A DNA stretch of 64,000 bases from Azolla caroliniana (Eukaryota; Plantae; Polypodiophyta): NCBI GenBank assembly GCA_043228905.1, contig JBHGNT010000004.1, positions 3,286,001 to 3,350,000 on the forward strand, written 5' to 3'. The stretch's first letter is position 1, and each line of letters starts with the position of its first letter. Under the pieces are notes generated by a model. It was not told where the DNA came from. It did not search any database and saw nothing but the letters and a program-made list of their open reading frames with translations. The position numbers and the translations under genes were made by a program. Below, piece after piece: positions 1 through 64,000 of the stretch.

Positions 1-351
1 CACTCAAACACGCATGGTAACTATTCGTCCATAAACATGCTCAATAATTAAGAGCCAAAATAGAGACAACATTCAATTGTCAACAGTGAACCATACATTA
101 AAATGTGTATAAGAAGAAACACACATAAACCTTGAAGAAAGAGGACACACCCATACATACCAAGAGGTACTCACGAGAGGCAAGCTCAAAACGTTCTGTA
201 TCTGCTATATGCTTAGCCCCTACCTCCTCGTCTTGATCAGGGCATTCCCATAGTGCTCTAAGCCTCATACTTATGAAGTTCACCTACTCGTCATCCTTCT
301 TCAATGCAATAGAATTGTGGAAAAGTTTCAATGCACATGCAGATGTAGCAC

Positions 352-432: not shown

Positions 433-840
433 GCGTGCCAGAAAACAAATCTAATATCAAATCATCTTCATTAGAGAACATTTCTACCAGGCACATCATT
501 AGTCGTTGAGGCTTTTGATAGGGATTGACAAGTCCATGCTCAATCGTCGTGACATGTTGCAATTTACATGTGACAGTTAGGTACACTAGCAGATTTGAGC
601 ATCCCACCTCATTTGAGTGTTCCTTTATTCAAGTTTGTTTCTTGATCTCGTCATAATAACCAATGGTTATATATTCCATCGCATTCACGAACCGAAAAGT
701 CGGTCCTCTATTTACGTTGGTTTTAATTTTGTTAATGGAAAAAAGAAGTTATGAGAAGACAATAATTGATCTAGATGTTTTATACACGAATCTTAGGAAA
801 TCATATTTGAATTCATTACAAGCACTCAATAGATCTGTAC

Positions 841-1297
841 CAAGCAAGGTTCTCTATTCCATGTCAACAAGACCTGAATGCTTGAGCCACAAAATATCCT
901 TGGTTCATGCTATGAAATATAACTATTCTCCACAAGGATGTGGTGGTCAAGTCGGCAAAATATTTAACCATTTTCTCTAACAACATAAACCTAAAAGGTA
1001 CATTGTCATATGTTGATCCAGCCATATGAAAACCATATGGAATATCTGCTATTAACAAATTTTGGGTAGAAACTGGATCATATCAGCTACATCACCGCAA
1101 TAAACATTATCATATAAATATCTGGCTATGTCTTTCTTGTGGTTGAACTTCTTGAAGGTGCCATCGTCATCAACATCAAACACTTTCACCAAGTGCATGT
1201 CCTTTTCCTTTCGAGCCCTTTCACGATGTGCAAGAAAGGAGGTTGTGAAATTATGAATATCTTTAACCTCACCGGGCCTCTTACGTCGACATGGTTT
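841..1297 (-). pseudogene. MTase exon containing catalytic motif IV (DIPY)
   Basis: Acceptor tttag ends at 1298 and donor GTACAG starts at 840. Reads ..NVYCGDVADMIQFLPK / LLIADIPYGFHMAGSTYD.. (ORF 864..1058), matching the 'GD..LP..DLI.TDPPY' start of N6_N4_Mtase domains. Confidence 0.8.
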
Positions 1298-4018
1298 CTA
1301 AATGAAACAACACAGTAACAAAGAAATTGTTAATGCCTTTAATATTGGTTAAAGGGAATGTCAAATTAAAGAGAAATACTAACCCAATCCTTAAATGTAA
1401 TGAAGTATTATAATAGCACAGTGTAAGAAGATGTTATCGGATATTCCTTGGTCATTTGTTCCCACGATAAGCAACCAAGTTGCTTCATCATCACTTCTTG
1501 TATTTCATATACACCTTGTGGCTAGAGAACAAAAAACCAACATTAGAAATATGTTACCATTTCAAGAGAAAACCCATAATTATTATTCTTGAAATAGTAG
1601 AACTTACTTGTTGAACTCAATGACCTTTTCTTCCAAGCTTAGCTCCTTAGCCATGACTCTAGCCATTACAGATATAAGAAGCTGCTCTTCTTTGATTCCT
1701 GACATCAACCTGAAAACTATGCACAATGAAATGTTCTCAAAGGTTGAAATATATTGTTCTCAAAGGTTTCTTTTGAAGCCCAACATTTGTCTTTGCATTC
1801 TAATAGTCAGGTTAGCTATGGACATTGAATGTCACTCAAATCAAAACACTACATGCAAGGTACAATGTAAATACATTACCTTTCCTACAATCGTACTTTG
1901 AAAGTAATTATCAATGAGCAAATATTATATGTTACAAGAATTGAATGGCACAAAGAAAAGCAAGGAACTCTTAATGAAATCATCAAATGCAATTCAATAA
2001 TTTAAGGTTTACGTATTGATACGATATTGTGTGAATGTAGCATATACAAAGCAAAGTGAACAACTTCAAATACATTTATAATACATTGCTTCTTGTCAAT
2101 TCCACAAGTTAGTTCTAATTTACTCTCAAGGATGAAGTCGCAAGCATCTTGGGAAAGTTTGACACTTAAACATTGTAAATGTAGTTGAATGATCGAATAT
2201 TTTATTATAGCGAAAATGACATGTGATGGAGCACAAAAGGTCCAATAATTTAGATAACAATGATACATATAGTTAAGGCAACACAATAATCATCATGTTG
2301 CGTATACAATGAGCAAACCCACAACCCTTTCAAATAATTAATCAAATTGGGAGATGTATTGATTTACATCATATATTCATTCAAATGGTATCATCCTAAT
2401 CAGTGCACTAATTAATTAATTAGAGTATTACCTTCCTAATTTGTAAATGTGTTCATATTTCATCCATGTCAAAAACAATATTGATGAGATGGAAAATTAT
2501 AAACTATGTTACACATCATCAACGTATTAGACTAGTTCGTAGTTGAGGGAGACTTTTATGGACATAGTGGTTAATTCATATCAATTGAGTGTTATGTCGC
2601 TTGGTTTTCTCACCCACGATGATGTGAGTACATGATAAAGACAATGCCAAACAAACTATTACTTAATATCTACTTTAAGAGAATGAAATATAAGGGAGAG
2701 AATGAGCGTCAAGAAAATATATAAGAAACATGAAACCAAAATTGGTGTCCACACACTATCAATGTATGCAATAAAGCTCAGAGTCAAGGCATTGTCAACG
2801 TAATGCTTGATGTGCCAATGCATGATATAAGTTTCACCCAACATTCTCTTTCTTTAGCATACATCAGAACACCCAGAATAAATTTATACAAATGGCCCTT
2901 TTAGCTCATATGCATGGCCTTATATCTTGACATATAGCTTGGGAGTTTTGATAATGTGGTGAAAAGATATCTAACTATGAACCTAGATCATGGTTTATTT
3001 GGCGAGAAAACACAATTAGGTTATTTAATGGAATGACAAATTAGTATTCCAAAATCTATGGGATGTCTTCGATGAGGCAATGGCAAAATTTGTTAAATTG
3101 AACTTGGGACCAGAGGTTCTTGCATGGTGATATTTAGAGGTCTTTAAGAACACAAATTTGGCTCTGACCCTTCATTTCCTTTTTTTCCCACATGGTAAAA
3201 GTATGTTCTTGTAGGTCCCAAACTTCACCATCCCTGAAGGCCAACTGAAACCATGACTTGTACTTTCGGATTCCATCCGACTTCACTATATCGTCCACCA
3301 CTATCCCAACTTTGTGAAGACAGTGAGGGAAGAGCGGGATATAACTTTGCTCCATATTTTTGCTTCACGTCAAGGTAGTCATGGTGGAAAAATCTAATGT
3401 GTTCAATGGATGACATCTTCTGCCGGTAGTCATTGTTGTTATGGTCCCATGCTAAATAGTTGTACTCATCATGTTTCCTTAAGTCAAAGTCTTCTAAGGA
3501 TAAACGCTCATTAGGATCAACCATTACAATAAATGGCACAAAATTAGCATGAGGATTTATCTTCATTTTTTTCTTGAGATTCTAGACGTGGAGTTTATGA
3601 GGTTCTCTTACCTCCAAGGGTCCACATCCAGTCTTCTCATCAATAGGTGGGGGATGTATGTGAGTGATCGGAAGGTTAAACACTTGGCCCTTCTACACAA
3701 GCTTTCTATAAATAATCTCCCTTCTTATTTTATTCCGTTTTGAAGAAAGCACACCAGAAGCTAACTTTGTCCCTGTGTTGTCTGAGCTTCTTCGTCATCT
3801 GTGGAACTTGATGACTCTGACTCATACATTTTTGTGACTTTCTTCTTGCCAATGGCAGGCCTTGAGTGCGTGGCAGCCCTTTTGGGTGCAACCTTTATGA
3901 GAGATGGTGAGCCCTCTGTCAATGTTACATGGCCATGAATGTATGACGTCAGTGTAGTGATCAAGTTATTTGTGATCTTAATTGCAATTTTTAAATATTC
4001 CGGACCGCATGAATCTTT

Positions 4019-4697
4019 TGTTGGGAAACCAGTCCCTCCGGATGGGATCGGATGGATTCGGAAGGTATCCGGAGCGGATCTGGTGTGAACCGAAAGTGAG
4101 GACATATTAGTAAATATGTTCCGATATGACTGTTGAGGTCACATTTGTAAATAGTCCCACAATTATATATGTATAAATATAACTAGGGCAATACTAAGTT
4201 AGCGGTTGTAATTTTGCTCTTGTGTTACACAGAGCAAGAGAGAGAGAGAGAGAGCGATCATAAAGCTTTCTGTTGTAACCGCCGGTTGGTGAAGACACAG
4301 AGCTCGAGGTCGTTGCTTCTGAGTCTCGCATTGTGTAACTCACTCCTATAGTGATTTTGTTTGGAGTTTGGTGAACTCCTGTGGTTTTGTCTCTCGAGGT
4401 TTTCCACGTAAACATTCTGTGTCATCTTGTTGTCTTGCAAAAGTAGATTGGTCCTTTTCTGTTAATCTTCCATTAGCATTTGAGAACTCGGTTGTGCCCG
4501 AGAATGATTCTTATCAATTTCATATCAGAGCAAGGTTCTAAGCTTCAAACATTCAGTGGCATGTTCAAGCTTACCGGCTCCGACTCTTTAGTGTGCAAGT
4601 TGAAGATGAGGGACATGCTAGTGGTAAAAGATCTCTGGCTGTCGGTACAATTTGGGGATAAAAGACCGAACAAGATCCATGCCGCGACATGGGAGGT
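4019..4697 (+). mobile_element. Old Ty1/copia 5' LTR (4019-4516), decayed PBS and gag start
   Basis: TG..CA segment similar to the LTRs at 11001 and 60144, then atttcatatcagagc (decayed tRNA-iMet PBS) and MFKLTGS..KMRDMLVVKDLWL, homologous to gag at 56293. Confidence 0.8.
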
Positions 4698-22686: not shown

Positions 22687-25600
22687 TGTTGGAAGCAATG
22701 TCGTCTGTGCGGAAGATCGAGAAGCACTCGATTCCTGTTTATTCCCTGTGTATGACAGAATGTAGGTCGTTGCACAGAGAGAGAGAGAGAGGGAGAGAGA
22801 GAGACACAAAAAACTCTTTATTGCATAAACAAAGAATACAACAACCAACCTCACAAAGAGGTTACAAGGTCACTATATATAGTGACCGACTTAGGGCAAC
22901 TACCCTTTATGCTAATTACATAAATGGCCGAGACGGGATGGTGTGAATACGTCCATTATACACATGTATTCGACACTCCCCCGTAATGGGCGTATACATG
23001 GGTTATCTAAGATTACAGGTATAGACTTAGGTTCTCGGACATATCAGCTTTGTTCGAGTCGGCAGGATCCGAAGACAGAAGACCGAACTGGTCGGGTCGG
23101 AACAGTTGAAGCCGATCATTAAGGAGCTGATGTCGGTTGTCGGGAACCATCCTGCTCTGTGTCCGGCTCTAACCGGACTGGTTTGTCGTTACGCCCATCT
23201 GATGCCGAAGAGACCGAAAACGGTCTGCCGAGAGACATTTGGTCATTCCATCTGCGACATTATCGGTTGTAGATATTTTCTCTAGACCGATTTTCCCTGA
23301 AATGACGCAGTCCCGAACGAAGTGATATCGAACGTCGATATGTTTGGAGGCGTTGTGGTGAACCGGATTTTTCGACAAGGCAACAGCACCTTGACTGTCG
23401 CTGTAGACAACTGGAGCCGAGTCATGTTCGACTTGTCGAAACGTGTGCGCCAGCCGACCGAGCCACAAAGCTTCTTTTGCCGCGTCGGACGCAGCTACAT
23501 ATTCTGCTTCGGTCGTTGAGGTCGCTGTGCACTCCTGAAGTTTCGACTTCCACGAGATTGCTCCATTGCCGAATTTGAAGCAGTATCCGGTTGTTGATTT
23601 CCGACTGTCTATACAGCCGGCGAAGTCCGAGTCGGTGTAACCGACTACGCCTGAGGTTCGGTTCGGTCCGAAAAGAATGCCATGGTCTTTTGTGCCAACC
23701 AGATATCTGAACACATGCTTGACTGCGTTCCAATGCGATCGGCCAGGGTTGTGCATAAATCTGCTAACGACTCCTACGGCATGAGAGATATCAGGCCGTG
23801 TCGCGACCATCAGGTACATAAGGGAGCCGACTGCCGGTGCATACGGTACCGACTTCATATCTTCCCCCTCCGAACCGGATGTCGGGCAGTCTCGCTGAGA
23901 GAGCCGAAGATTCATGGGGAGCGGGGTTGAAGCAGATTTGGCTGATTGCATGTTGAAGCGTTCCAAGACACGTCCGATATAGTCGGTCTGAGACAAAAAA
24001 AGATGTCGTTTATCGCGATGCCGACTAATTTTCATGCCAAGGATGTGTCGTGCCGGACCGAGGTCCTTCATGGCAAACTTCAACCGCAGTTGCCGAACTA
24101 GATCGGAAAGTTCGCCCGCGTGGCGTCCAGAAATTAGCATGTCGTCCACGTAAATGATGAGGAAGATGGGTGATCCATCTCGAGCTGTGTTGGTGAAGAG
24201 ACAATGGTCCTCATCGCTTTTGGAGAAGCCGATTGATTGGATGAAGTCGTCGAACTTCTTGTACCATTGTCGCGGTGCCTGTTTGAGGCCGTATAGACTC
24301 TTCCTGAGTCGGCAGACTAGATGTTCTTGGCCAGTTGCCACGAAGCCTTTTGGCTGCTCCATATAAATTTCCTCCTCGAGATCACCATGGAGGAAGGCTG
24401 TTTTGACATCTAGCTGAATCAGCTCCAAGTTGTCGGCTGCCACGACGCCGAGCAGAAGACGAAGGGTTGTCATTTTCACCACTGGTGAAAAAATCTCGTC
24501 GAAGTCGACTCCATATTCTTGTCGGAAGCCCTTCGCAACTAATCTGGCCTTGTACTTTGGGGTGGTCGAATCAGACGTCTCTTTTAGTCGATAAACCCAC
24601 TTGCAAGGAAGAGCACGTCGGTTCCTAGGTAATTCGACCAGATCCCAAGTCTTGTTTGCCCGGATGGAGTGCATTTCCGACTCCATCGCCAGATGCCAGG
24701 TGGCCGAATCGACAGATGTCGATGCTTCTTCGTAAGACGTCGGTTCGCCGGCGTCGGTGAAGAAAATTCCAGGAGAATACCTCTCCGGAGGTTGCGACAG
24801 TCTCTCGGATCGTCGAGGTATGATTGGACTGGTCGCATCGGGTATCGTGGTCGGATGGTCCGAAACCGAATCATTCGGCTGTGCCGAGTCAGAGTTGTCC
24901 GAGTCGGTAGTATAAGGGTCAGCTACCCGTGAAGCTGACCGTGTGTTGAGAGCGGGGCCTTCTTGAAGGGTCGGCACATCGGAGAATGTTACCCTTCGGA
25001 CTTCGATCGGTTTGTCGACCGATGGATTCATAGCCGACTCGTTGAACACAACGTCCGAACTTCGAACGATTTGTCTGCGTTCGGGGTCCCAGAGTCGGTA
25101 TCCCATTTCGCCGTCTGATCCATATCCAAGGAAAATGCATTTCCTGGACCGAGGTGCAAGTTTTCGGCGATCATCTTTCGGAATAAGGGCGTACGCCTCG
25201 CATCCGAAGATCCTCAGCTTGTCGTAATTCGGCTTGCTGCCGATCCATAATTCCTGAGGAATTTGAAGTCCTAGAGGTCTACTTGGCGACATATTGATTA
25301 TGTGTACTGCCGTGAGTAGAGCCTCTGCCCAGAAGCCATCCGACAGTCCGGAGTGTTGGAGCATGGAAACTGTCCGTTCTTGGATTGTCCGATTCATTCG
25401 TTCTGCAATCCCGTTTTGCTCCGGACTGTGTGGTGCCGTAAGTTCACGTCGGATGCCGCGTTGTCGGCAGAATTTGACGAATTCTTCGGATTTAAACTCT
25501 CCCCCATTGTCTGTCCGAAAGCATTTCAGCTTTCGGTCGGTTTGATTTTCCACCATAGCGAGCCAATCTGAAAAGATCGAGAAGACACGATCTTTGGTGC

Positions 25601-28136
25601 GAATTGGATACGCCCACACCTTTCGAGTCGAGTCGTCAATGAAAGTGACGAAGTAAGATGCACCGCCTAGAGACTGATGCGGCATTGGGCCGCAGACGTC
25701 CGAGTGGACCAAATCGAGAGGTCTCGTTTCTCTTGGTGCTGATGTCGGGTGTGATGCGGCGGCTTGTTTGCCATACTGGCAATGCTCGCAGAATTGATGG
25801 TCGGAGAAGGAGAGTTTGGGGATGTATCCGGCTCTAGATAGATGCGTGATGCCGGCCTTGCTGAGGTGTCCCAATCGTCGGTGCCATAGTGATGACACAG
25901 GAATATCCACCAAAAACAGGTTACCCTCTCTGAGCGTAACATGTAACGGATACAGTGAGTGTATCTTGGGTCCTCTAGCAAGCAGGAGGTTCCCCCTGTG
26001 GAGTGTCCACCCTCCCGAAGAGAAACCGGCACGAATGCCGTCTTCATCTAGTTGTCCGACTGAGATCAATGGCCTTGAGAGCTCGGGTACATGTCGGACA
26101 TTGTGGAGTACAAGTGTAGAGCCACCTGCAAGGTTGAGCTCTACTGTGCCGATTCCAATGATGTCACAGTGTTGCGAGTTGCCGACCCGAACTGAGTCGG
26201 AGTGACGGATCGTATATTGCCGAAATTGGGATCGATGAGGAGTCACGTGAAATGACGCGCCCGAATCTAAGAGCCATGTGCTCGATTCTTCAGTCGTGAG
26301 CAGAACTTCTGAGCCGACTGGATTTTCGATTGATAGTATATTCGGGTCGTCTGGTAGCACATCAGCTGAGAAGCTGACGTAATTGATCTCCTCATGCCGG
26401 CCACTCTTCTTGTTGTTCTTGTTCTTGAGTGCGCGGCAGTCGGCTTTGATGTGTCCGGGTTTCTTGCAATAGTTGCAGATTCGGTTATCCCGTGACTGGC
26501 TCCGTCTTCGCTGATTGTTCGGCGGCCGTGAGGAATCTCTTCCTCGTATGTTTGATCGGTCTGTCGAACCTTGTACTACGTAGGCGTCGTCTGTTGAGTC
26601 TTTGGCGAAAGACTTTCTCCGAGCTGCTTCGGTCAGGATTGCGCTCGTGACTTCGGAGTATTTAACAGCCGTGGTTGACGCGTTGCACACGGTTGTGACG
26701 AAAGTTTCCCATGATGGGGGAAGGCTGCTCATGAGTATCATTGCTCTGAGTTCATCCTCGATTGCCGTCCCCTGTGACGAGATTTGGGAGCTTATGCTTT
26801 CGTACTCATTGAGGTGTGCTTGGACCGAGTCGGATTCTTTCATCCGCAAGTTGTAGAGGCGCCGGATCAGAAACATCTTCGTTGCGGCGACCTTCTTTTC
26901 GTAAGTGTCCGACAGTGTTTTCCACAGTTCGAATGCTGTCGTACACGATTGCACCGTGAAGTATACCGATTCCGATAGGTGCATCCGAATCGTGGCGCGG
27001 ACGATTCTGTCCAGCTTCTGCCACTCAATTGGTTTGTATCCTTCTGGAGGTTCTTCATGTTCGATGGGGTCGATTTGCCCCTTGACTATGAGATAGTCCT
27101 GCATTTGTTCCTTCCAGAAGTTGAAGTTCGATCCATCGAACTTTCGTAGACTCATTTCTGACGAGCCTGATGTTGATGCCATCAAATTCGGTTTCGGTTG
27201 ACGAAGCTCGGTTCAGAGTTGACTGTGAACCTTGTTGGAGTGCAGCCGGTTGGCTCACCCGATATCGTTCTAGTCGGATTTGAACCCGAGTCGGTTCGGC
27301 TTCGGAACTTGCTCGAATTGACTCCGGTAACTTGAGGGACAGAGCCGACTGGTCTTCCCGAATGTTGCCGAGTCGGAGTGAGCCCGGTTCGCTTCGGATA
27401 TATGTGCCGAATACCGATTATTGAAACCGATTATCTGGACCGATTCTGCTTCGGTTGACTGCAGCGACGAGAGAGACAGATCCAACTGATCCTCTCGAAT
27501 GTCGATCAGCCGGATGAAGCACGAATTTAGGGTTGTTGTCTTGAGACCGATCTGCACCGAGTGGTTACAACGAGCAGCGTTTGGAGACCTCTTCGGATGC
27601 CGTTTAACCGAATGGAGCACGATCGTGTCAATGATGCACAAGGGGATTTCACCTCGAGCGGTTACGATCACAAGGAGGGAAGTACAACCTGCTGGCTTAC
27701 TCCAAGCAAAGATGATCTAACGCGATGAGATGCAAACCTGTTTTTCTTCTTCTTCTCTCTTCTTCGAATGACGCAGGAAACCGAATGCAGAGACGACGGC
27801 CGACAGCGGATTGAAGGACCGACTACTGTGCAGGCTCTGATACCAGATGTTGGAAGCAATGTCGTCTGTGCGGAAGATCGAGAAGCACTCGATTCCTGTT
27901 TATTCCCTGTGTATGACAGAATGTAGGTCGTTGCACAGAGAGAGAGAGAGAGGGAGAGAGAGAGACACAAAAAACTCTTTATTGCATAAACAAAGAATAC
28001 AACAACCAACCTCACAAAGAGGTTACAAGGTCACTATATATAGTGACCGACTTAGGGCAACTACCCTTTATGCTAATTACATAAATGGCCGAGACGGGAT
28101 GGTGTGAATACGTCCATTATACACATGTATTCGACA
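22687..28136 (-). mobile_element. Intact, very young Ty1/copia LTR retrotransposon (element C)
   Basis: 289-bp LTRs 27848-28136 (5') and 22687-22975 (3') appear identical. TSD CCCGT at 22682-22686 and 28137-28141. PBS TGGTATCAGAGC (tRNA-iMet) at 27834-27845. Short PPT next to 22976. Confidence 0.97.
23169..27185 (-). CDS. Copia Gag-Pol polyprotein (1338 aa)
   Basis: Uninterrupted ORF with CNYCKKPGHIKADC knuckle, protease WLLDSGAS, GAG-pre-integrase and integrase VHSDVCGP..QNGIAERMNRT, RT QLDVKTAFL/YVDD, and RNase H ..KHIDVRYHF..ADGMTK. Confidence 0.97.
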   Translation of the reverse strand: MMASTSGSSEMSLRKFDGSNFNFWKEQMQDYLIVKGQIDPIEHEEPPEGYKPIEWQKLDRIVRATIRMHLSESVYFTVQSCTTAFELWKTLSDTYEKKVAATKMFLIRRLYNLRMKESDSVQAHLNEYESISSQISSQGTAIEDELRAMILMSSLPPSWETFVTTVCNASTTAVKYSEVTSAILTEAARRKSFAKDSTDDAYVVQGSTDRSNIRGRDSSRPPNNQRRRSQSRDNRICNYCKKPGHIKADCRALKNKNNKKSGRHEEINYVSFSADVLPDDPNILSIENPVGSEVLLTTEESSTWLLDSGASFHVTPHRSQFRQYTIRHSDSVRVGNSQHCDIIGIGTVELNLAGGSTLVLHNVRHVPELSRPLISVGQLDEDGIRAGFSSGGWTLHRGNLLLARGPKIHSLYPLHVTLREGNLFLVDIPVSSLWHRRLGHLSKAGITHLSRAGYIPKLSFSDHQFCEHCQYGKQAAASHPTSAPRETRPLDLVHSDVCGPMPHQSLGGASYFVTFIDDSTRKVWAYPIRTKDRVFSIFSDWLAMVENQTDRKLKCFRTDNGGEFKSEEFVKFCRQRGIRRELTAPHSPEQNGIAERMNRTIQERTVSMLQHSGLSDGFWAEALLTAVHIINMSPSRPLGLQIPQELWIGSKPNYDKLRIFGCEAYALIPKDDRRKLAPRSRKCIFLGYGSDGEMGYRLWDPERRQIVRSSDVVFNESAMNPSVDKPIEVRRVTFSDVPTLQEGPALNTRSASRVADPYTTDSDNSDSAQPNDSVSDHPTTIPDATSPIIPRRSERLSQPPERYSPGIFFTDAGEPTSYEEASTSVDSATWHLAMESEMHSIRANKTWDLVELPRNRRALPCKWVYRLKETSDSTTPKYKARLVAKGFRQEYGVDFDEIFSPVVKMTTLRLLLGVVAADNLELIQLDVKTAFLHGDLEEEIYMEQPKGFVATGQEHLVCRLRKSLYGLKQAPRQWYKKFDDFIQSIGFSKSDEDHCLFTNTARDGSPIFLIIYVDDMLISGRHAGELSDLVRQLRLKFAMKDLGPARHILGMKISRHRDKRHLFLSQTDYIGRVLERFNMQSAKSASTPLPMNLRLSQRDCPTSGSEGEDMKSVPYAPAVGSLMYLMVATRPDISHAVGVVSRFMHNPGRSHWNAVKHVFRYLVGTKDHGILFGPNRTSGVVGYTDSDFAGCIDSRKSTTGYCFKFGNGAISWKSKLQECTATSTTEAEYVAASDAAKEALWLGRLAHTFRQVEHDSAPVVYSDSQGAVALSKNPVHHNASKHIDVRYHFVRDCVISGKIGLEKISTTDNVADGMTKCLSADRFRSLRHQMGVTTNQSG

Positions 28137-30284: not shown

Positions 30285-31186
30285 TGTTAATCCTAGGCCG
30301 GACAACAAACTGACACAGGGTGTCCACTTAAGACACTTCACCAAAGGGTGTCACGACAAGATGACTTACGGCACAACACTTAATTAGACCTTAATCGGTT
30401 ACTTAGCAACACATCATTAACACGCTGTCGTGAAGAAAACCGCCCACAAGAGGAATCGGAGGAACAAGGCGTGGGAAACGGCTCTACACACACACGCGTG
30501 CCAAGAAGTACCTAAGGACGAAGTAGGCACATACGAGGATCCTAGGTGGGTAGATTCGGTTGGTATGCAGTTAATGCCAAACGGCCTCTTGACGGGCTAT
30601 AAAAGGAAGAGGAAGAAGAGAAGTCGGGGATCTCCCGCGGAGAGGACGAAGTGCTGCCGAACCGATTTCGGAGCTTCTCTCTCACTCCCGCTCTCTCTGT
30701 CTTCTGCTCCATCGCGTACCTGTGCAGGTTTCGAGGAGGCTTGCGCTGTTCCGTGGAACGCCCCGAGTGCGTCCTGCAGCACCTCCGACCTGTTTCCCCC
30801 TTCTGTGCGTCGCGACATACAGGGGTCGGCATCTGTTCGCCGCCCTGTTCGTTTTCGTTAGTATCTATTTCGTGCCCCACTGTGGGTTGTAATACTTTAG
30901 TCTGTTATTTCCTTGCATTCATAAGTACATACCTTTCGTTGTTGCGTCCATCTGCGTCGGCGTTATTTGTGATCTCTGTTTGTTGGGCCGTGTCCCTGTG
31001 TAATCGTCGGTTCTGCGCAATCGGAACTTCGGTTCTGTGTAATCGGGGTCTCTCTCTCTTACCTCTCTCTCTCTTGCTCTTCGGTTCAAGACCCCCGTGG
31101 TCCCTCCTCCTTTCTACACGCAAGGGCGTAGCAACCCCGACATCTTTGGTGAACCCGACGTGAAAGAGGCGGCAGAAGAGCAGGAA

Positions 31187-33313
31187 ATGAAGGGGGCGGA
31201 TCTTGCAGAGGCCATGGCTTCGGCCGTGGATCGGATAGTAAGCGCGCGCGAGGGCACCGGCGCCCTCGATAGAGCTATTGAGGCGGTCGTCGGAACGATC
31301 GGTCGATTCACCGGAAAAGATGCCACGAAGTACCTGGCGTCCTACGGTGCGGAAATGTTAATGCGGGACATTCCGGAAGACAGGCGCCTTGCCGGTTTTC
31401 CCCGAGTGGCGATGCCGAGCATCCACGCGGAGGTGCTCGAGGTGCGGGCGGAGAGCCGTACCTGGGAGGAGTTCGAAGGTCGGCTCCTGGAAAAATACGG
31501 ACTGGACGACGCGCTCCGGCTTTCGAAGCGAAGCTTCCTGGAGTGGGTGGAGTCTCCCGGGAAAGTAAGGAATGCGTCGGCACTCCTCCGGGAGTTCGAG
31601 GAGAACTTCGCGCGCCTTTCGGCGCTTGACAGGATGGTCCTGGATACAAGCCGGGTCCTGCTGTTCGTCAAATCGGTTGACGAGAGGGATCGGAGTCACG
31701 TGGGCGCCCTGCTAGAAACCGAAGACGGGCTGACAGCCGACTGGGCGGCGGTCAAGAGAGCCTGCGGCCGTTTCGACAAACGGCGAGAATGGGAGGATGA
31801 CAGAGCAACCGGGTCGGGCTCAGTCGCGGCGAGGAAACTCGAGCCGGCGCAGCCGGTGCGAAGGGAAGAGACTCGGGAGTGGCTGGAATCCGGTTCATCT
31901 CCGACCGGCGGGATCAGAGGCTCGACTGGAGGAGCTGCGTTGGAGGAACTGACGAGGGCGATAAAAGACCTCCAAATCGCACAAGCCCGCAGAGAAGGCG
32001 GAGGACCTGCTCGTGACCGACGGCCGGCGGCAGGGAACAGGTGCATGTGGTGCGACGGGGTCGGCCACATCCGAAAAGACTGCGGCGATTTCGCGGAGGC
32101 GCTGAGGAACCGGGTGGTGTACCTATGGGAAGGCCGGGTTCACGCCAACGACACGAGAAGGGCCCTAAACCGAAACGACGGGCGAGGCGGAATGAAGAGG
32201 TTGATGGAAGAGGCGGCGGCCCGACATGTGGAAACCGTCCACTACTCGGCGTCGGCCGGTATTCGAGTCGGGGGCGGCGAGGCCCGAAAGGAAAGCAAAG
32301 CCGGATTCTGGCCGACGATGCTGGAAGGCCTTGCCGGTGCAGGGCTAAAAGGGGAGGAATCGGACCGTGCGGAGAAACGGGTACGGGAGATGACCGGGTG
32401 GAGCGACCCGGTCGAGGAAAAGACGGGCTTCGTGGAAGCCGCTTGCCGGAACTACGAGGCTCTGGTAGAAGAGAAGCGGGTGGGGAAACCCGGGACGACC
32501 GGGCCCTCACAACGATACGAGACCCGGTCCGGGCCACGGCGGGACGAAGCCGGCGGGGCCAGTACGCAAGATAAACCCCAGAAGGGCGGGTACCGTCTGG
32601 GGACGGAGATAGAAAGAACCACGGACTTACGAAAGGTCCTGGAGGAACGGATCCTCGACAGCAAGGTGGAGCTGTCGCTACGGGAGGTGCTTGGAATCGC
32701 CAAGAAGGAGTTCCACGACTCCATCGTGGACTTGGTGAAACGGAAGAGGCTGTCAACGGAGACTGAACCGGAAAGACCGGTGGAAGTACGGACGACGCAC
32801 CTAGACGACATGGCGCTGGGAGAAGAGTGGGCGGAAAGCCACTATTCGAGACCGCACTGGGCCCGAGCGACCACGGAAACCCCGGTGAAGATCGGCGATG
32901 TCCAGGAACCGGTGATAGCTTTGGTGGACCACGGATCGGAGATCAATTTGATGTCCATGGACTTCTATAAGAAGGGCAAATGGCCGATCAACACCAAGCA
33001 CGGGTGGAAAATAAGGGCAGCAACGCGCGCCACCGAGGAACTGCACGGGGCCTGTCCGAATGTGCGAGTCAAGATCGGCGACGTCGAGATTGACCAGCAC
33101 TTCTTCGTGCAGGAGACGTCTTCGCATCCGGTCATACTGGGAGAGCCGTACATCACGGCGGCGCGGATGGAGACCAAGGTGTTGGACAATGGTTCGGCCT
33201 ACGCGAGGGTCAAAAGCCAAGACGGGCGCCATTCGGTCCAGTTTCTGACGGTACGGCCGAACCACGAACGTAACCGCGACTCCCTCGGTTCCGATAACCG
33301 AGAGGATTTTTAG
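31187..33313 (+). CDS. Gag-protease ORF of element G
   Basis: First ATG after the PBS is at 31187. Contains the CMWCDGVGHIRKDC zinc knuckle and aspartic protease LVDHGSEINLM..VILGEPY. Ends GAG GAT TTT TAG. Confidence 0.92.
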   Translation: MKGADLAEAMASAVDRIVSAREGTGALDRAIEAVVGTIGRFTGKDATKYLASYGAEMLMRDIPEDRRLAGFPRVAMPSIHAEVLEVRAESRTWEEFEGRLLEKYGLDDALRLSKRSFLEWVESPGKVRNASALLREFEENFARLSALDRMVLDTSRVLLFVKSVDERDRSHVGALLETEDGLTADWAAVKRACGRFDKRREWEDDRATGSGSVAARKLEPAQPVRREETREWLESGSSPTGGIRGSTGGAALEELTRAIKDLQIAQARREGGGPARDRRPAAGNRCMWCDGVGHIRKDCGDFAEALRNRVVYLWEGRVHANDTRRALNRNDGRGGMKRLMEEAAARHVETVHYSASAGIRVGGGEARKESKAGFWPTMLEGLAGAGLKGEESDRAEKRVREMTGWSDPVEEKTGFVEAACRNYEALVEEKRVGKPGTTGPSQRYETRSGPRRDEAGGASTQDKPQKGGYRLGTEIERTTDLRKVLEERILDSKVELSLREVLGIAKKEFHDSIVDLVKRKRLSTETEPERPVEVRTTHLDDMALGEEWAESHYSRPHWARATTETPVKIGDVQEPVIALVDHGSEINLMSMDFYKKGKWPINTKHGWKIRAATRATEELHGACPNVRVKIGDVEIDQHFFVQETSSHPVILGEPYITAARMETKVLDNGSAYARVKSQDGRHSVQFLTVRPNHERNRDSLGSDNREDF

Positions 33314-33372
33314 AGAGGGCTGCCAAGGCGTGGGGCCGCGACAGTCCGGACACCCCGGGAAAACCCCACACC
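33304..33372 (+). promoter_or_regulatory. Predicted -1 ribosomal frameshift signal (G GAU UUU plus downstream stem-loop/pseudoknot)
   Basis: The slippery heptamer directly precedes the gag stop. gggctg..cagtcc forms a stem, and loop gtgggg is complementary to ccccac at ~33364. Confidence 0.75.
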
Positions 33373-36801: not shown

Positions 36802-37728
36802 AGGCGGGCCGGTTTTCTCCGTGCCAACTTAATTTGGCGCATGCCGGTGGATGCGCGGTTAGGTGGGGGCGGATGTCGTGAAGAAAACCGCCCACAAGAG
36901 GAATCGGAGGAACAAGGCGTGGGAAACGGCTCTACACACACACGCGCGCCAAGAAGTACCTAAGGACGAAGTAGGCACATACGAGGATCCTAGGTGGGTA
37001 GATTCGGTTGGTATGCAGTTAATGCCAAACGGCCTCTTGACGGGCTATAAAAGGAAGAGGAAGAAGAGAAGTCGGGGATCTCCCGCGGAGAGGACGAAGT
37101 GCTGCCGAACCGATTTCGGAGCTTCTCTCTCACTCCCGCTCTCTCTGTCTTCTGCTCCATCGCGTACCTGTGCAGGTTTCGAGGAGGCTTGCGCTGTTCC
37201 GTGGAACGCCCCGAGTGCGTCCTGCAGCACCTCCGACCTGTTTCCCCCTTCTGTGCGTCGCGACATACAGGGGTCGGCATCTGTTCGCCGCCCTGTTCGT
37301 TTTCGTTAGTATCTATTTCGTGCCCCACTGTGGGTTGTAATACTTTAGTCTGTTATTTCCTTGCATTCATAAGTACATACCTTTCGTTGTTGCGTCCATC
37401 TGCGTCGGCGTTATTTGTGATCTCTGTTTGTTGGGCCGTGTCCCTGTGTAATCGTCGGTTCTGCGCAATCGGAACTTCGGTTCTGTGTAATCGGGGTCTC
37501 TCTCTCTTACCTCTCTCTCTCTTGCTCTTCGGTTCAAGACCCCCGTGGTCCCTCCTCCTTTCTACACGCAAGGGCGTAGCAACCCCGACAACGCGTAAGA
37601 TATAACAATGAGTACAGAACGGTAATCAATACTGAAAAGATTAAGGCAATAAGTTCTATTAATTATCCGCTGTCGATTACATTGTAATCGGGCCTTTATA
37701 TAGGTCTCCGGTGCGAAGTACAAAATGG

Positions 37729-50100: not shown

Positions 50101-50979
50101 AGGAACACCTGCATGAATGCCGGTATGAATTCTCCGAATATTTCCATGATGATCCTCTGGAACGTTGTCGGCGCCGTTTTCAGTCCGAACATCATCACTA
50201 CGGCAACAAACACTCCCTATTCAGTGACGAAAGCCGTTTTCTCCTGGTCATCGGGGTGCATCCGGATTTGGTTGTATCCGCTGAATCCGTCTAAAAAACT
50301 GTATACTTCATGGCCGGCGACTGTGTCCAAAACTCCATCCGTAAATGGAAGTGGAAATGCATCAGTTACCATCACCGCATTAAGCTTCCAGTAGTCGACA
50401 CATACTCTAATTTTGCTGTTTTTCTTCGGTACGACTACTATCGGGCTCAGCCATGTCAATTTCTTTACGGGACGGATAAAGCCAACTCTCAGCAACTTAT
50501 CGATTTTCTCCTTGACTTTGGCGGCGTAATTTGGATTCATCCGGTACCGTCGCTGTGCTACCGGTTTGGCATCTTTGCTCAAATGTATCTGGTGCTGATA
50601 TAGCTGAGGATCGAGCCCTCTCATATCCTCGTAGGACCAGGCAAACACGTCCCGAAACTCTTTGAACACCGGGACATTTGAAACAGGTAATATGTCGCAT
50701 TTTGAGAACTGTCCATCAAAAAATGACACAAATTAGGGTGATTCACAAAAAGGGGTGCCGCATGCGTAAAGGAATTTTAAAAATGACCCAAAAATATATT
50801 GATTTTTAACATGTACGGAAATTTAGGTGTTCAAAAAAATGCCTAAATAATGGACATGCCAAACTTAGAAATGAATGTCCAAAATGACTAACCCCAATAT
50901 TTATAGAAATTCTGAATCCAAATCTTGATGTGCAATACAATATTTATAGTTAACGTATCAGGACAATCATTTTTCAAGT

Positions 50980-51525
50980 TTATGTCATCATCTTCATACC
51001 CATTAGATGAAATAGTACGAGTTTATGAGGTCTCATCCTCATCATCAATGGCAACTAATGCATTGTGTTGATCCAATTGCAATCCAACCTCATCGAGTTT
51101 ATGAGTCATGCTTCTTGTTTGTCTTTGTGTTGTGTTTGAAGCCACATTCCGGATCCTCTTTTAGTATCTTCATTGTGGTCTGTCACAGATAACTTGTTTT
51201 GGTCAAAGATAAGTCATACACTAATATATAAACATTATCCAATGTAAGAGTAGATGTGCTTGATGCATCTTTCCTCCTCACTTTTTGGTTATGATATTTC
51301 ATTATGTACTTTCCATTTACAAGATTAGATTATGTGAGAGAAGCTTTCTACCAAAATCATTAGAATCTAAAAAATGTCTTAAAGATGTTTTCCATTTTTC
51401 TTAGATTCTCATAGTAAGCCTTTGATGTCGTACAGAAATCCGATTCATTCCATCTAGATTTGACGCAACATGTCGAATTTTACTCTATACATCTAGAATT
51501 GGATATAATGCATCAGATTCCTGTA
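50980..51525 (-). pseudogene. Degenerate 3' end of an unidentified gene in the left arm of the TIR element, possibly the transposase C-terminus
   Basis: Reads ..NGKYIMKYHNQKVRRKDASSTSTLTLDNVYILVYDLSLTKTSYL*QTTMKILKE.. followed by an acidic tail. Composition is coding-like amid AT-rich DNA. No catalytic motif is visible. Confidence 0.35.
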
Positions 51526-51526
51526 A

Positions 51527-52997
51527 GTCTTGGAATTTTATTAAAAATTTCCATTAAAAAAATACTCTTGCATTTTAATGCATTGCATTGAATTCTAGCT
51601 ACATAGACTAAAATATGATACATTGCATGGATTTCCCGAAAATACATAAATAAATAGAAATTGAAAAAATAAAACATTTTCCCATAAATAAATAAATAAA
51701 CATTTTTTATTTTACTCGTAAATAAATAAATAAAAATTGAAAAATTAGATTTTTTATTTTTTTTCCAAATTTTCATAGTTTTTAGAGTTTTTTTGGTATT
51801 TTGTTTGTCTATTTTCTCATAAATAACTATATAGAAATTGAAAAAATGAATTTTCAAAGGATCTATTGAAAGTCCACTTTTTGCTATTTGTTACCAAATT
51901 TTCATATTTTAAAATTTTTTTTTGTATTTTTTAAATTGGTTTTCATTTTTTCCAATAAATAAATAAATAAAAATTGCAAAAAATGGGTTTTCAACAGAAA
52001 TCCGATTGAAAATCCATTTTGTCTTATTTGTTTCCAATTTTTCAGATATTTTGAATTTGTTTTTGTATTTGTTTTGAATTGTTTTTGTTTTTATCATAAA
52101 TAAATATATAGGAATTGAAAAAAATGGATTTTCCACTTTTTCTTGTTTGTTTACAAATTTTCTTATTTGTTTATATTTTTCTCTAAAAAAGTGTTAAAAA
52201 TAAACAAATTGTGATTTTCTCCATTTAAAATGATGTGTTTTCAACGGGAATCCGATGTAGTGCATCGGATTCCCGTTGAAAACACATCATTTTCAACAGG
52301 ATTTTCAATGGAAATCCGATGCACTGCATCGGATTTCCGTTCAAAATCACTGAGTTTCAACAGAAATCCGATGCAGTGCATCGGATTTCCCTTGAAAGTC
52401 CAATATCTTTCTTATGTTTTTTCATAAAACATTAATTTGCAATTGAAATCCGACTCAATGGTTCAGATTTTGTTGAAAATGTAATATTTTTTTATTATCT
52501 CATTGTTTTATGAAAAACCTAAAAGAAATTTGGATTTTTAATTGAAATTCGATGTAGTGCATTAGATTTCAGTTGGAAATCCACTTTTTTAATATATTTT
52601 TATTTATTTTTTGAAAAAATGAAAAACAATTGAAAAGAAAGAGGATTGCCAGCTAAAATCTGATGCAATGCATCAATGTCTAGCTGTATAGACTACGATT
52701 TGATGTAGTGTATCGGATTTCAGTTGAAAAGCCGTTTATTATTTTTTATATGGAAAATAAATAAATAAATAACATTGGAAAAAGAAAAAAGAAAAAAGGA
52801 TTTTCGACTCTAATCCAACGCATTGCATTAGATTCTAGCTATATATACTAAAATATAATGTAGTGCATAGTATTTTAGCTGAAAATCCATTTTTTTTATT
52901 TTAATGGAAATTTTTTTTAAAATTACAAAAAAAAAAAAACTTGGATTTTCAACTGAAATCTAGTGCATTGCATTGGATTCCAATTAAAAATCCAAGA
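51527..52997. repeat. Array of about 10 palindromic units (consensus GGATTTTCAACTGAAATCCGATGCA-N-TGCATCGGATTTCAGTTGAAAATCC) with poly-A/T spacers
   Basis: The best unit, 52227-52293, is a 67-bp palindrome with one mismatch. Further units lie near 52300, 52355, 52440, 52530, 52645-52732, 52800-52888, 52943-52993 and 51575-51640. Confidence 0.85.
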
Positions 52998-53033
52998 TTT
53001 TTTATTTTTTCAAATTTTATTGTTTCAAATTTT

Positions 53034-53477
53034 CAATGGGTTTTAGATTAGTTTTCTAACACAGGTATATAATATAAAACTTACATCAATTTAGATTTAC
53101 GTTATATTCTATTCTTCAGTTTGATGTTAGCTGTGCAATTTCATTCTACTGTCATGTACTACTAAAACATACGCCTTAAAGATTATCAGGAACTCTGTTG
53201 CATTAGAGAAGGACCTTGAGCAAGTTAATGTCATCAAAATGAGGATCCAAGGTATCTGGGGTTGTCCTGATCAAGACCAAGAAGTTGGGGCAAAGCATAT
53301 CAATAAAACTTAGATGTTCCAGATGACTTTTAGAAAACTTGTGGAACTATAGATGAAGACGCAGGGCAACTTGTTGAATTAGAAGACGTTTCAGAGTCTG
53401 AACATACTAACAATTCAACTTAGCGTACTAACGAAGCCAATGAGGACAATCCTGATGAAAGAGCTAATCCTGAGTAG
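53034..53477 (+). pseudogene. Second, diverged N4/N6 DNA methyltransferase 3' fragment (motif I exon, intron 53065-53155, last exon)
   Basis: QWVLD*FSNT(G)|intron|TTKTYALKIIRNSVALEKDLEQVNVIKMRIQGIWGCPDQDQEVGAKHI aligns with LILDLFSGT|ATSACALKLFHNSIALKKDDE*VNFISMRLRALWECPDQDEEVGAKHI of the copy at 170-460. Confidence 0.85.
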
Positions 53478-55656
53478 ACGGCTTTACCAGACTTATTATT
53501 CGATTGAATGGTTATGGCTTATTGTAAATTTTGAACAATATGAATTGTTAAATTTTGACGTAATATATAAGTTGAGCTTACTTATAATTTTCGTGTAACA
53601 ATCATTGAACTTAGAAATTAAGTATACTTGTATGTGCACATGTTATCTAAACTCTCCTTTATCATTTGGGGTATATCGGAGATAAGTTTATACTCTATCA
53701 TTTACTCGTATGATTGGAATGTTATTGTAGACTAGTTTATTTATACATTGACAGTGTCATGTATCACGTGTCAATGGAAATTTCCTCTTGACATAGTAGT
53801 ATCAGTTAATTGCAAGGTTCACAATTTGCTTTAAGATGTATTATATTTAAATATACACACATAATTAGAAGAAGTCACTTATTCAATGGGGCATGCTTTT
53901 TAGAATATGCACAAGGACCCGTGTTACTATTATACTTGTGTTGACAAATACACCCCTGTCTAAGATTTGGACAAAAACATGGTAGATAGAATATACGTCG
54001 GATGATTTTGTTGATGTGATATTAGTTAGTTCTTTTTTTCGCTATGTTTTCATAAACCACATACACATGCGTCGTGCCTTGTTGAAATTCTGCTTAAATA
54101 AGGCATTTTTTAACATCTCACTAAGATATGAAAAAGAGAATGCGACATATTACCTGTTTCAAATGGCCCGATGTTTTTGAGAAGTGTAATCATCGTCGTT
54201 CTGTTCTCTGTAGTCATTTCCTTGGCTATCTGCACCGGTCTCGCCTCTTTCGTGGTTCCTAGATTGACCTCCTCTAGTTGGGATGCTTTAACCCGTTGTG
54301 ATACGGCCATTTCTCTTTCCAGTGTTTCTTGTGCTTGCCGTAGTTCCCAGATTGCTTCTTTATTTGGTTCTTCGTCCGCTACGTCCGGTGGTAGTATGTA
54401 TGGTGATACGGCTTCAGCTACGTCGATTTCAAATAGAGGTACTATCTTTGGATTATCTTGCAAGTATTGATCCACCTCTTCGTCTGCTAATCCGTCCAGC
54501 ATATTGACACATTCGGCATATAGGGGTGTCAATTCCTTCCCGGTACCCGTCCATGGTTGTGTCGGTACCCGTACTTTTGCTTTTCCCCGCCGGAAGGTGA
54601 TTATGTTCTTCCTCCAATTTTGTTTAATGTGCGTCGTTTTTAGCCACAACCGCCCCAACAATAGCGGGTACGCACCTTGTGCTTGTAATTGTAGCACTAC
54701 TGCCGAGATGCGAAATGTGTGGCCGCCGATTGTTACTTCCAAATCTCGTATCAAGCCGGTCGGTCACACTGAGCTTGTATCCACCATCCGTAGCCAGAAC
54801 GGGCATGGTTCCCACTCTTGGATTCCCAAGGTGGTGCATGTTCGGAGGCTAATCACGTTGACGCCGGATCCTCCATCTATTACTGTTCCGGGTAACTCCT
54901 TTCCCTTCACGATGGTCGTGATCGTCGGACTGTTTGTGTCTACCACCGCCAGTCCCTCCTCCGGATTTGAGAAGAATGTTGGTGCCGGTGGTGTTTCTCC
55001 TACCGTCATGCCTGTCTTGAGTCCTTCTGTGAATCTGGGCACTAGTTGCAGGAGCTGTCCTAATGGCAGCGTGATTTGGCACTCTTGCAATGCCTGCCAT
55101 GTCGCGTTTTCAGTTTGACTGCCGCCGGCGAGCTCTTCGGTGTTCTCCTTTTGCTGCGCAAGTTCTGCTACGTTTCACTCATTTTCCTTTTTCACCCATT
55201 CCGTTGCCTGCTTCCGGATGGCCTCTTGTGTCTCCCATTCCGTTGTCTTGCCCTTCCACCTTGTGGTAACTTGTTGCAGGTCTGCGACTTCGGCGACTAC
55301 CATGTTTACTGTCGGTCGCTTGTCATAGCTCTTTGTCGGACATTGATTACTATAATGTCCTTCTTGCCGGCAATAATTGCAATATGCTTTCTGGGTGTTG
55401 CTGGATTCGGCATTGTTTCCTCTACCCGGTGGAGGACCTGTGGTAACCGCGGGGCTTTGGTCCGGTTGGCTACTTGAGGTGCCTTTTTCCGGTTCATGTG
55501 GGTGGCTCCCTTTTTTGAAATGCCATTTTTTATTAAAGTTCTTTTTGTTGCGGTACCCTTGACGGGGTTGGTCGTCATTTCTCCCGTAATCTTCCCGTCG
55601 TTGGTGATACCCGGGGGAGTGATCCCAGTTGTGATGCTCGTACCGTCCATTGTAAT

Positions 55657-61824: not shown

Positions 61825-61861
61825 CCATTCCCGCCGTTGTTCACTGCGATTGTGGAGGAAT

Positions 61862-61872
61862 CGTGGTCGCCA
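61862..61872 (-). promoter_or_regulatory. Primer-binding site of element D (TGGCGACCACG, tRNA-Arg-like)
   Basis: Lies 7 nt (tagtttt) downstream of the 5' LTR on the coding strand, just upstream of gag. Confidence 0.7.
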
Positions 61873-63989: not shown

Positions 63990-64000
63990 TGGTAACTGTT

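What the first reader, a model, noticed from the sequence alone, without database searches (positions are those of the whole stretch)
3165..3720. ParB/Srx-like region upstream of the MTase on the same strand
Seen: the minus strand reads VFNLPITHIHPPP..LEVREPHKLHV*NLKKKMKINPHANFVPFIVMVD..YNY/LAWDHNN.DYRQKMSSIEHIRFF. Established: ParB N-domains follow 'ipi..I.p....R......L..si.....Pi.V...y.i..G.RR...eN..r..ls..e', and ParB-MTase fusions occur in phages and mobile elements. Inference: a ParB-like domain whose central G-x-H/R-R segment is deleted in this copy, linked through helical exons (1709-1608, 1521-1384) to the MTase. A ParB clamp could target or spread methylation.
Basis: inference. Interest (0 to 1): 0.7.

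Follow-up and report, generated by a model that had tools for sequence, protein, structure and literature searches.

The report
Dead transposon ParB-methyltransferase gene copy
This is a broken copy of a spliced gene, carried by a plant cut-and-paste transposon, that joins a domain predicted to fold like bacterial ParB to a bacterial-type DNA methyltransferase; intact copies likely bind a row of palindromes in their own element and mark it, a design already described in algae but untested.

Summary
The reading is real. Window 3165-3720 (-) is part of a dead, multiply broken gene copy; a 129-nt in-frame deletion at 3455/3456 removed 43 codons kept in 68 of 68 related loci. Intact relatives are predicted to fold like ParB/Noc/Srx (Z 11.3, rmsd 1.9) and are spliced through four conserved GT-AG introns into one ~970-aa ORF with a beta-class amino-methyltransferase (33 of 39 loci). 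The intact motif is GGSHS: the arginine that ParB needs for CTP is absent nearly family-wide (1 of 80), so a classical CTP sliding clamp is doubtful; site-specific self-binding is likelier. The architecture is in print for Ectocarpus Sola1-1_Ec32 (PMC12477816), and this scan noted it before on other DNA of this and other genomes. New member of a known, untested kind.

The parts
3776..4018 (-). Remnant of the N-terminal domain and charged linker of the long exon; cut off at 4019 by an LTR-type repeat; 1-nt frameshift at 3776
   Evidence: tblastn 55-60% identity to P0002/P0005/P0006; gaps against L022/L008
3426..3686 (-). ParB/Srx-fold domain remnant (residues 198-328 of intact P0005), with a TAG stop at 3582-3584 (a second TAG lies just upstream at 3693-3695)
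   Evidence: fold of the intact relative
3455..3456 (-). Point of a 129-nt in-frame deletion that removed the Box II segment (GGSHS helix, strand, and start of the Box III helix)
3157..3425 (-). Helical segment after the ParB fold (position of the DNA-binding HTH in ParB; assignment inconclusive); 2-nt frameshift at 3329
1710..3156 (.). Foreign AT-rich DNA (32% GC) replacing about 35 codons; origin unknown
   Evidence: no hit in 80 loci or the rest of the window; 5 of its open frames gave no Pfam hit
1608..1709 (-). 3' end of the long exon; GT donor at 1607
1384..1521 (-). Next exon (helical linker); 1-nt frameshift at ~1506
841..1297 (-). Exon with linker end and methyltransferase motif IV (DIPY); 10-nt loss and frameshift at ~1052-1062, TGA near 864
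433..728 (-). Exon with PYQKP and start of SAM-binding motif I; splice acceptor changed from AG to AA, internal stop, last Gly of motif I reads Arg
   Evidence: Pfam N6_N4_Mtase E 2.6e-06
170..351 (-). Last exon, with a stop; similarity to relatives ends at ~170
4019..4560 (+). TG-start LTR-type repeat that truncates the gene upstream (end coordinate approximate); the transposase and palindrome array of this copy were not found in the window
   Evidence: blastn to other repeat copies in the window; tblastn of the window
50665..54175 (+). Non-autonomous relative of the same transposon clan, inserted in a Gypsy pol gene: 37-bp TIRs (50665-50701, 54139-54175), 4-bp target duplication TTTG, transposase C-terminal remnant (51026-51287, -), palindrome array (51438-52978), last methyltransferase exon remnant (~53160-53470, +)

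Best explanation
The region is the broken ParB-like part of the accessory gene of a Sola1-like plant DNA transposon; in intact elements this gene is predicted to be spliced into one protein with a ParB-fold domain and a beta-class DNA amino-methyltransferase, which likely docks on the palindrome array in the element and likely methylates the element's own DNA, most likely at adenine. Shown here: the lesions of this copy; the linkage of gene, transposase, TIRs and array in related loci; strong purifying selection. Predicted: both folds, the splicing (one of four introns seen joined in a probable RNA contig). Inferred: that this protein, not the transposase, binds the palindromes (through the helical segment after the ParB fold), that phased sites let several dimers assemble on one face of the helix, that the mark is 6mA rather than 4mC, and that it serves to keep the shared promoter region active or to tune transposition. 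Because the Box II arginine is missing, the ParB fold more likely acts as a dimerisation/assembly module than as a CTP-gated sliding clamp.
For: Fold: top Foldseek hits all ParB/Noc/PadC/KorB/Srx; VIA Z 11.3, rmsd 1.9 over 94 residues to 7bnk, first non-ParB/Srx-type row Z 4.5; an independent distant relative P0039 gives the same (PadC Z 9.5) and CcrM Z 23.7 for its C-terminal domain. One gene: all placed donors GT (58, 48, 41, 39 loci), introns about 80-90 nt, constant phases; 33 of 39 loci spanning all four junctions give one stop-free ORF with ParB motif, DIPYG and DLFSG; intron 4 is joined GT..AG in a contig of probable RNA run X1; 7 of 33 long distant relatives carry N6_N4_Mtase in the same protein. 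Transposon: divergent DUF7869 ORF in 12 of 12 loci with 3.5 kb or more upstream, TIRs of 35-37 bp starting AACAC, transposase and ParB identities co-vary (Mantel r 0.94, 10 loci); Riccia R1sor_010795 (DUF7869) and R1sor_010796 (ParB-MTase) have consecutive locus tags. Selection: 81% amino-acid identity in the ParB domain (87% in the 43 deleted residues) against 72% in the methyltransferase with saturated synonymous sites, 18 families. Target: palindrome AANTCGATRC-N3-GYATCGANTT, 194 matches upstream of the gene against 2.2 expected, in 36 of 38 loci, spaced at multiples of ~10.3 bp; kept in the non-autonomous copy of the window and in a second one nested in L003. Precedent: PMC12477816, bioRxiv 2025.02.11.637652.
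Against: No binding, methylation or mobility was measured. The HTH assignment is not significant: profile alignment to Deinococcus ParB scored 18.7 (whole core) and 9.8 (helical part), inside the range of block-shuffled controls (up to 27 and 18), and Pfam finds no ParB family in 11 of 11 intact proteins. The palindrome pattern was drawn by eye from the same loci, and related elements and tandem duplication make the spacings non-independent. The transposase could equally be the binder. DIPY is a variant of DPPY, and the fold cannot tell 6mA from 4mC (4mC enzymes score Z 19-20 against 21-24 for 6mA enzymes). 6 of 39 spanning loci do not give an intact ORF. No junction between the ParB exon and the next exon was seen in RNA.
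Confidence: 0.6

Rival explanations
1. A true ParB-type clamp: the protein loads at the palindromes (parS-like), closes on a nucleotide and slides, spreading methylation along the element.
For: ParB fold with domain order of ParB (Spo0J 1vz0 aligns over 164 residues into the helical part, but Z 5.1, rmsd 5.4); Box I arginine and Box III asparagine positions are conserved; palindrome array resembles a centromere-like site; the ParB domain is the most conserved part.
Against: The residue after GGxH is S in 55, T in 7 and R in 1 of 80 proteins with the motif; R-to-A at this position abolished nucleotide binding in all binders tested in bioRxiv 2025.10.10.680097 (passage); the catalytic glutamate position reads S in this clade (register, a non-significant alignment). 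Phage ParB activators of DNA dioxygenases work without these residues (PMC13229309, passage).
Confidence: 0.15
2. The protein is a structural or regulatory helper of transposition (like CACTA TnpA, Harbinger Myb or MURB, recalled) or an autorepressor bound at its own first intron; the methyltransferase fold is a DNA-binding module with little or no catalytic role.
For: Array lies between a short first coding exon and the long exon in 7 of 13 loci, next to both promoters; non-autonomous copies keep the array; distant relatives have degenerate motif IV or none (P0177 reads DTP; several lack a Pfam MTase hit).
Against: Motif IV DIPYG is invariant in 33 of 33 ORFs and DLFSGTGT in 32 of 33, with 72% identity at saturated synonymous distance, which fits a working active site in this clade.
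Confidence: 0.2
3. The two regions are separate genes, or this is a domesticated host gene.
For: Prokaryote-style gene calls end at the first donor, so many database proteins hold only the ParB half; the annotated Ceratopteris model P0025 stops before the catalytic domain.
Against: No start/stop or promoter space between the halves; conserved in-phase introns; single-ORF fusion P0039 without introns; TIRs and transposase linkage; this copy decays with C-to-T excess at CG (37 of 139) and CHG (20 of 102) against 67 of 1168 transitions at A/T sites.
Confidence: 0.04

Closest known systems
Sola1-1_Ec32 of Ectocarpus and its 1104-aa ParB-like + N4C/N6A methyltransferase accessory gene (PMC12477816; passages and three supplement rows seen, figures not seen)
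   Same: ParB-like plus amino-methyltransferase gene on the strand opposite the transposase; 4-bp TSD; termini start AAC (AACCG there, AACAC here); same self-modification idea, untested there too.
   Different: Land plant; compact 7-8 kb elements with 35-37 bp TIRs against 21.5 kb and 282 bp TIRs; the passages read mention no palindrome array and no loss of the Box II arginine. Sequence homology to the Ectocarpus protein was not tested.
Plavaka PAG2/PAG3 accessory genes of the red alga Bostrychia (bioRxiv 2025.02.11.637652; passage seen)
   Same: ParB-like protein on a DNA transposon with tandem inverted repeats beside the gene, proposed to bind and modify its own element; an adenine methylase gene is also carried.
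   Different: There ParB is fused to a 2OG oxygenase and the methylase is a separate gene; different transposon superfamily.
Phage ParB_N + N6_N4_Mtase fusions beside terminase (Javan93 gene 0016; PMC4738411 and bioRxiv 2025.10.10.680097, passages)
   Same: Same two domains in the same order; the methyltransferase part of relative P0039 hits these at 24-29% identity.
   Different: Phage protein is 418 aa with a short linker and DPPY; no hit of the ParB half to phages; here a ~300-aa helical linker, an N-terminal domain, introns, DIPY.
VANDAL/VANC anti-silencing in Arabidopsis (PMC10398659; passages)
   Same: Transposon accessory protein aimed at short motifs in tandem arrays in the element's non-coding DNA.
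   Different: VANC binding and demethylation are shown; VANC is not an enzyme of this kind and its motifs diverge between families, whereas the core CGATRC here is shared by all subfamilies.
Chromosomal ParB/Noc CTP clamps and sulfiredoxin
   Same: [quoted passage not shown]
   Different: GxxR arginine replaced; HTH and dimerisation unproven; no ParA.
Marchantia MpDN4MT1 (bioRxiv 2021.02.12.428880; passages)
   Same: Beta-class prokaryote-type amino-methyltransferase in a land plant.
   Different: Host genes with TSPPY making 4mC in sperm; no ParB mention; here transposon cargo with DIPY.

Membership tests
ParB/Srx fold superfamily | N-terminal ParB/Srx alpha-beta fold | tested here: met
   Predicted model of intact P0005: VIA Z 11.3, rmsd 1.9, 94 residues to 7bnk; rows 1-28 all ParB/Noc/PadC/KorB/Srx/SerK/SbnI-type or related; repeated with P0039. 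Prediction, not a solved structure.
ParB/Srx fold superfamily | Sequence match to Pfam ParB_N or to a ParB profile | tested here: inconclusive
   No Pfam ParB hit; hhalign not above shuffled controls; ESM Atlas lists one ParB_N cluster (35% of members) at 0.92, rank 29.
Canonical ParB CTPase clamp | Box II GxxR arginine | tested here: not met
   GGSHS in the plant clade; R in 1 of 80 proteins with the motif; deleted altogether in the window copy.
Canonical ParB CTPase clamp | Box I arginine and Box III asparagine | tested here: met
   xxR (EIREP) in most rows and N232 of P0039 nearly invariant; register.
Canonical ParB CTPase clamp | Central HTH DNA-binding domain | tested here: inconclusive
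   Four helices follow the fold; weak superposition on Spo0J/pNOB8 ParB (Z 5.1 and 8.5, rmsd above 5); profile test not significant.
Canonical ParB CTPase clamp | CTP binding, dimer clamp, spreading from the site | not testable with these tools
   Needs biochemistry.
Beta-class N6A/N4C DNA methyltransferase | Motif IV before motif I, Pfam N6_N4_Mtase, CcrM/RsrI-type fold | tested here: met
   DIPYG then DLFSGTGT; Pfam above cut-off; CcrM Z 23.7 for relative P0039. In the window copy both exons are broken.
Beta-class N6A/N4C DNA methyltransferase | Catalytic activity and target base | not testable with these tools
   DxPY leans to adenine (established motif rule, recalled); not decisive.
Sola1 DNA transposon | TIRs and 4-bp target duplication | tested here: met
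   TIRs in all three subfamilies examined; TSD TTTG seen for one insertion only, window 50665-54175; definition from PMC10741241 passage.
Sola1 DNA transposon | DDD transposase | tested here: met
   IDGMD, QLDN, GHTHDHIDQ invariant in 10 of 10; Pfam DUF7869. That these aspartates are the triad is inferred.
Sola1 DNA transposon | Sequence affinity to reference Sola1 transposases | not tested
   No reference sequence could be obtained; no paper linking DUF7869 to Sola.
Transposon ParB-methyltransferase accessory proteins (Sola1-1_Ec32 type) | ParB-like + amino-methyltransferase in one gene, opposite strand to the transposase | tested here: met

The most novel reading that the evidence does not exclude
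Land-plant Sola1-like transposons encode a self-addressed DNA writer: an arginine-less, nucleotide-independent ParB domain assembles on helically phased palindromes in the gene's own first intron and puts 6mA (or 4mC) on or beside the CG of the CGAT half-sites, shielding the shared promoter from host CG silencing. It would be a transposon-made protective base mark in a land plant and a new working mode of the ParB fold.
Probability: 0.25. Interest if true: 0.8.

Novelty: new member of a known kind. Interest (0 to 1): 0.4.

Why it matters
Land plants are thought to have almost no DNA amino-methyltransferases. If intact members of this high-copy family are active, ferns and other seed-free plants carry transposon-written 6mA or 4mC at a predictable 23-bp site, which makes the published but untested idea of self-modifying transposons directly testable: one compact protein, one defined palindrome, one mutant. 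The near family-wide loss of the Box II arginine in a domain under stronger constraint than the enzyme points to a non-clamp use of the ParB fold. The copy in this window itself does nothing.

Tried and rejected
No whole genome was held, so copy number in the host and the missing 5' half could not be examined. Pfam, PDB sequence search and profile alignment did not detect ParB; the gp41 rows are chance hits in a low-complexity stretch. Homodimer prediction for P0039 residues 78-510: no answer, score 0.07, alignment not used; not evidence either way. Sequencing runs: no RNA holder listed; two same-label runs with next to none of the words; only 5 contigs of X1 could be laid on L022, X2 none; the first junction therefore stays unchecked in RNA. 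First intron search misplaced many junctions and was replaced. The 1710-3156 segment as a real intron: rejected, relatives have continuous coding sequence there and 35 codons are missing. Remainder of the gene beyond the nested retrotransposons: not in the window; the AT-rich 50.7-54.2 kb block is a different, non-autonomous copy. Depletion of a palindromic 4-mer in coding DNA as a hint to the target: none below 0.91. Viral-contig scan with the deep alignment could not run; prokaryotic genomes were not scanned. The N-terminal domain gave only weak PH-like matches (Z up to 4.5). Original Sola paper and Yuan and Wessler 2011 were not available; Iyer et al. 2011, cited for the green-algal case, was not read. 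Searches for a land-plant report of this system listed none, but most subscription papers and Repbase are not covered, and supplements of the bioRxiv preprints were not seen.

Full report
Observation. The window is plant DNA made mostly of nested LTR retrotransposons. Read with X at the stops it finds 29 relatives among 77 candidates; the only named one is a Ceratopteris protein, so the host is likely a fern or another seed-free plant (inference). All 5 relatives aligned back carry 43 extra residues between YNY and LAWDH. At DNA level the gap is 129 nt with a TT microhomology, and 68 of 68 loci holding both anchors keep the segment. The deletion is real and private to this copy.

State of this copy. 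It is dead: stops, frameshifts at 3776, 3329, ~1506 and ~1060, an AG-to-AA acceptor, Gly-to-Arg in the SAM motif, 1.45 kb of foreign DNA in place of ~35 codons, and truncation at 4019 and ~170. At positions where three intact relatives agree, transitions hit 37 of 139 CG, 20 of 102 CHG, 64 of 584 CHH and 67 of 1168 A/T sites, the pattern of a methylated repeat.

Fold. The AlphaFold model of intact P0005 (pLDDT about 75-90 over most of 190-320, poor beyond 360) matches ParB, Noc, PadC, KorB and sulfiredoxin first; residues 198-328 superpose on Myxococcus ParB with Z 11.3, rmsd 1.9, against 4.5 for the first unrelated row. A distant single-ORF relative, P0039, repeats this and gives CcrM Z 23.7 for its C-terminal domain. 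Sequence methods do not see it: no Pfam ParB hit, and a profile alignment with 120 Deinococcus ParB proteins put IGGSHS on VAGERR and the DHN helix on the IEN helix but scored within shuffled controls. The deleted 43 residues are the Box II helix and what follows. The intact motif has no arginine: after GGxH stand S in 55, T in 7 and R in 1 of 80 proteins with the motif, of 185 examined (many are close kin). Changing this arginine abolished nucleotide binding in the ParB-fold proteins of bioRxiv 2025.10.10.680097 (passages); phage ParB partners of DNA dioxygenases did not need their nucleotide residues (PMC13229309, passages). A CTP-gated clamp is therefore the less likely reading. An HTH after the fold is plausible from helix order but unproven.

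One gene. A scan of metagenome contigs gave 146 related stretches, of which the best 80 were kept; many have coverage of 30-360, as repeats do. Downstream exons follow in the same order wherever the contig is long enough. Four GT-AG introns of about 80-90 nt sit at the same phases; 33 of 39 loci that span all four give one stop-free ORF (950-1000 aa where complete) with the ParB motif, DIPYG (33 of 33) and DLFSGTGT (32 of 33); four fail after placement and two have no clean third exon. A contig of run X1, which is only guessed to be RNA, joins intron 4 at the predicted GT..AG; the first junction was not covered. Seven of 33 long distant relatives carry N6_N4_Mtase in the same annotated protein, among them Chara, Riccia, Ginkgo and Adiantum entries and the intronless P0039. 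Across 18 families under 95% identity, synonymous sites are saturated while amino-acid identity is 81% in the ParB domain, 87% in the deleted segment, 72% in the helical part and 72% in the methyltransferase.

Transposon. All 12 loci with at least 3.5 kb upstream have a divergent ORF of about 830-900 codons with Pfam DUF7869 and three invariant acidic motifs. L026 is a whole 7.6-kb element with 37-bp TIRs; the subfamily closest to the window copy (L006, L008, L022; about 75-80% identical DNA) has 35-bp TIRs, and all start AACAC. A non-autonomous relative at window 50665-54175 shows a 4-bp target duplication in a Gypsy gene. Transposase and ParB identities co-vary over 10 loci (r 0.94; two pairs are near-identical). 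In Riccia the transposase and the fusion have consecutive locus tags, and P0039 and a DUF7869 protein come from contigs of the same length. DDD transposase with 4-bp TSD fits Sola (PMC10741241, passage); affinity to reference Sola1 proteins was not tested.

Palindrome array. Upstream of the gene 36 of 38 loci carry the palindrome AANTCGATRC-N3-GYATCGANTT: 194 matches in 34 kb against 2.2 expected, and 31 in the other 168 kb, 12 of them in a nested element (the pattern was drawn from these loci; one miss, L062, had no region left by my coordinates). After dropping 8 near-duplicate loci, spacings cluster at 30-34, 40-43, 49-54, 63, 71-73, 84 and 90-92 nt; the best period is 10.2-10.6 (R 0.75 for 134 spacings, 0.54 for 27 distinct values; not independent). 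Prompted by earlier notes of this scan, I found a short basic first exon before the array with a phase-matched acceptor after it in most of 7 of 13 loci (donor and acceptor both placed in 5), so the array likely lies in the gene's first intron. In the window copy the array is lost with the 5' end.

How it most likely works. Inferred chain: the spliced protein binds the palindromes as a dimer through its helical segment; phased sites allow cooperative assembly, with the ParB fold as a contact surface; the tethered enzyme methylates nearby DNA, more likely adenine (DxPY; nearest solved sequences are 6mA enzymes), which keeps the shared promoter region active or tunes transposition, in the manner of VANC targeting (PMC10398659, passages). 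Confidence 0.6 for self-binding plus methylation; 0.15 for a true sliding clamp; 0.2 for a non-catalytic helper.

Novelty. The architecture is published: Ectocarpus Sola1-1_Ec32 carries a 1104-aa ParB-like + N4C/N6A methyltransferase gene opposite its transposase, with AACCG termini and 4-bp TSD, and the authors propose self-modification and cite algal precedents (PMC12477816, passages and supplement rows); Bostrychia Plavaka elements have a ParB protein beside inverted-repeat arrays (passage). I read the Ectocarpus paper only after earlier notes pointed to it, although it stood in my listings. Phage ParB-methyltransferase fusions beside terminase are the prokaryotic model. The scan holds 265 notes with these words, including intact copies on other pieces of this genome; none lies near this place. 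My nine literature searches listed no land-plant report, within the limits of the library. What this look adds is the near family-wide loss of the Box II arginine, the stronger constraint on ParB than on the enzyme, and the helical phasing. Verdict: real, a dead copy, new member of a known but untested kind; interest 0.4.

Noticed in passing
window 50665-54175: Internally deleted, non-autonomous member of the same transposon clan inserted in a Gypsy pol gene, with intact 37-bp TIRs, a TTTG target duplication and about 12 mostly degenerate palindromes.
   Followed up: yes
L003 3278-5883: A similar non-autonomous element with 12 palindromes is inserted into the methyltransferase exon of a sister element.
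   Followed up: partly
window 1710-3156: 1.45 kb of AT-rich DNA of unknown origin replaces about 35 codons; it ends in a good-looking splice acceptor at 1710, which misled the exon call.
   Followed up: partly
window 1-170: Similarity to intact elements stops at ~170; the gene's tail and right TIR are replaced by other sequence.
   Followed up: no
window 4019-50600 and 54200-64000: Nested LTR retrotransposons; a long open Copia-type ORF at 23169-27212 (1347 aa) between 99% identical repeats, and long Gypsy-type ORFs at 31043-36801 between 100% identical repeats, so both are young.
   Followed up: no
window 37700-41100: Minus-strand ORFs with coiled-coil and low-complexity content and internal tandem duplications (446-451 nt) inside a Copia-like element; extra ORF region not identified.
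   Followed up: no
P0005 residues 13-121 (window remnant 3930-4018): N-terminal domain of the accessory protein folds with confidence and matches PH-like domains only weakly (Z up to 4.5).
   Followed up: partly
P0177, P0176, P0136; Atlas clusters: Distant relatives of the ParB-like domain occur in an amoebozoan transcriptome (the only one with GGRHR), a sea cucumber, and a SAM-domain fusion; look-alike clusters come from sponges, molluscs and ascomycetes (DUF3723).
   Followed up: no
L027 4033-5955: A transposase ORF lies downstream of the methyltransferase gene on the same strand, probably a second element nested or in tandem.
   Followed up: no
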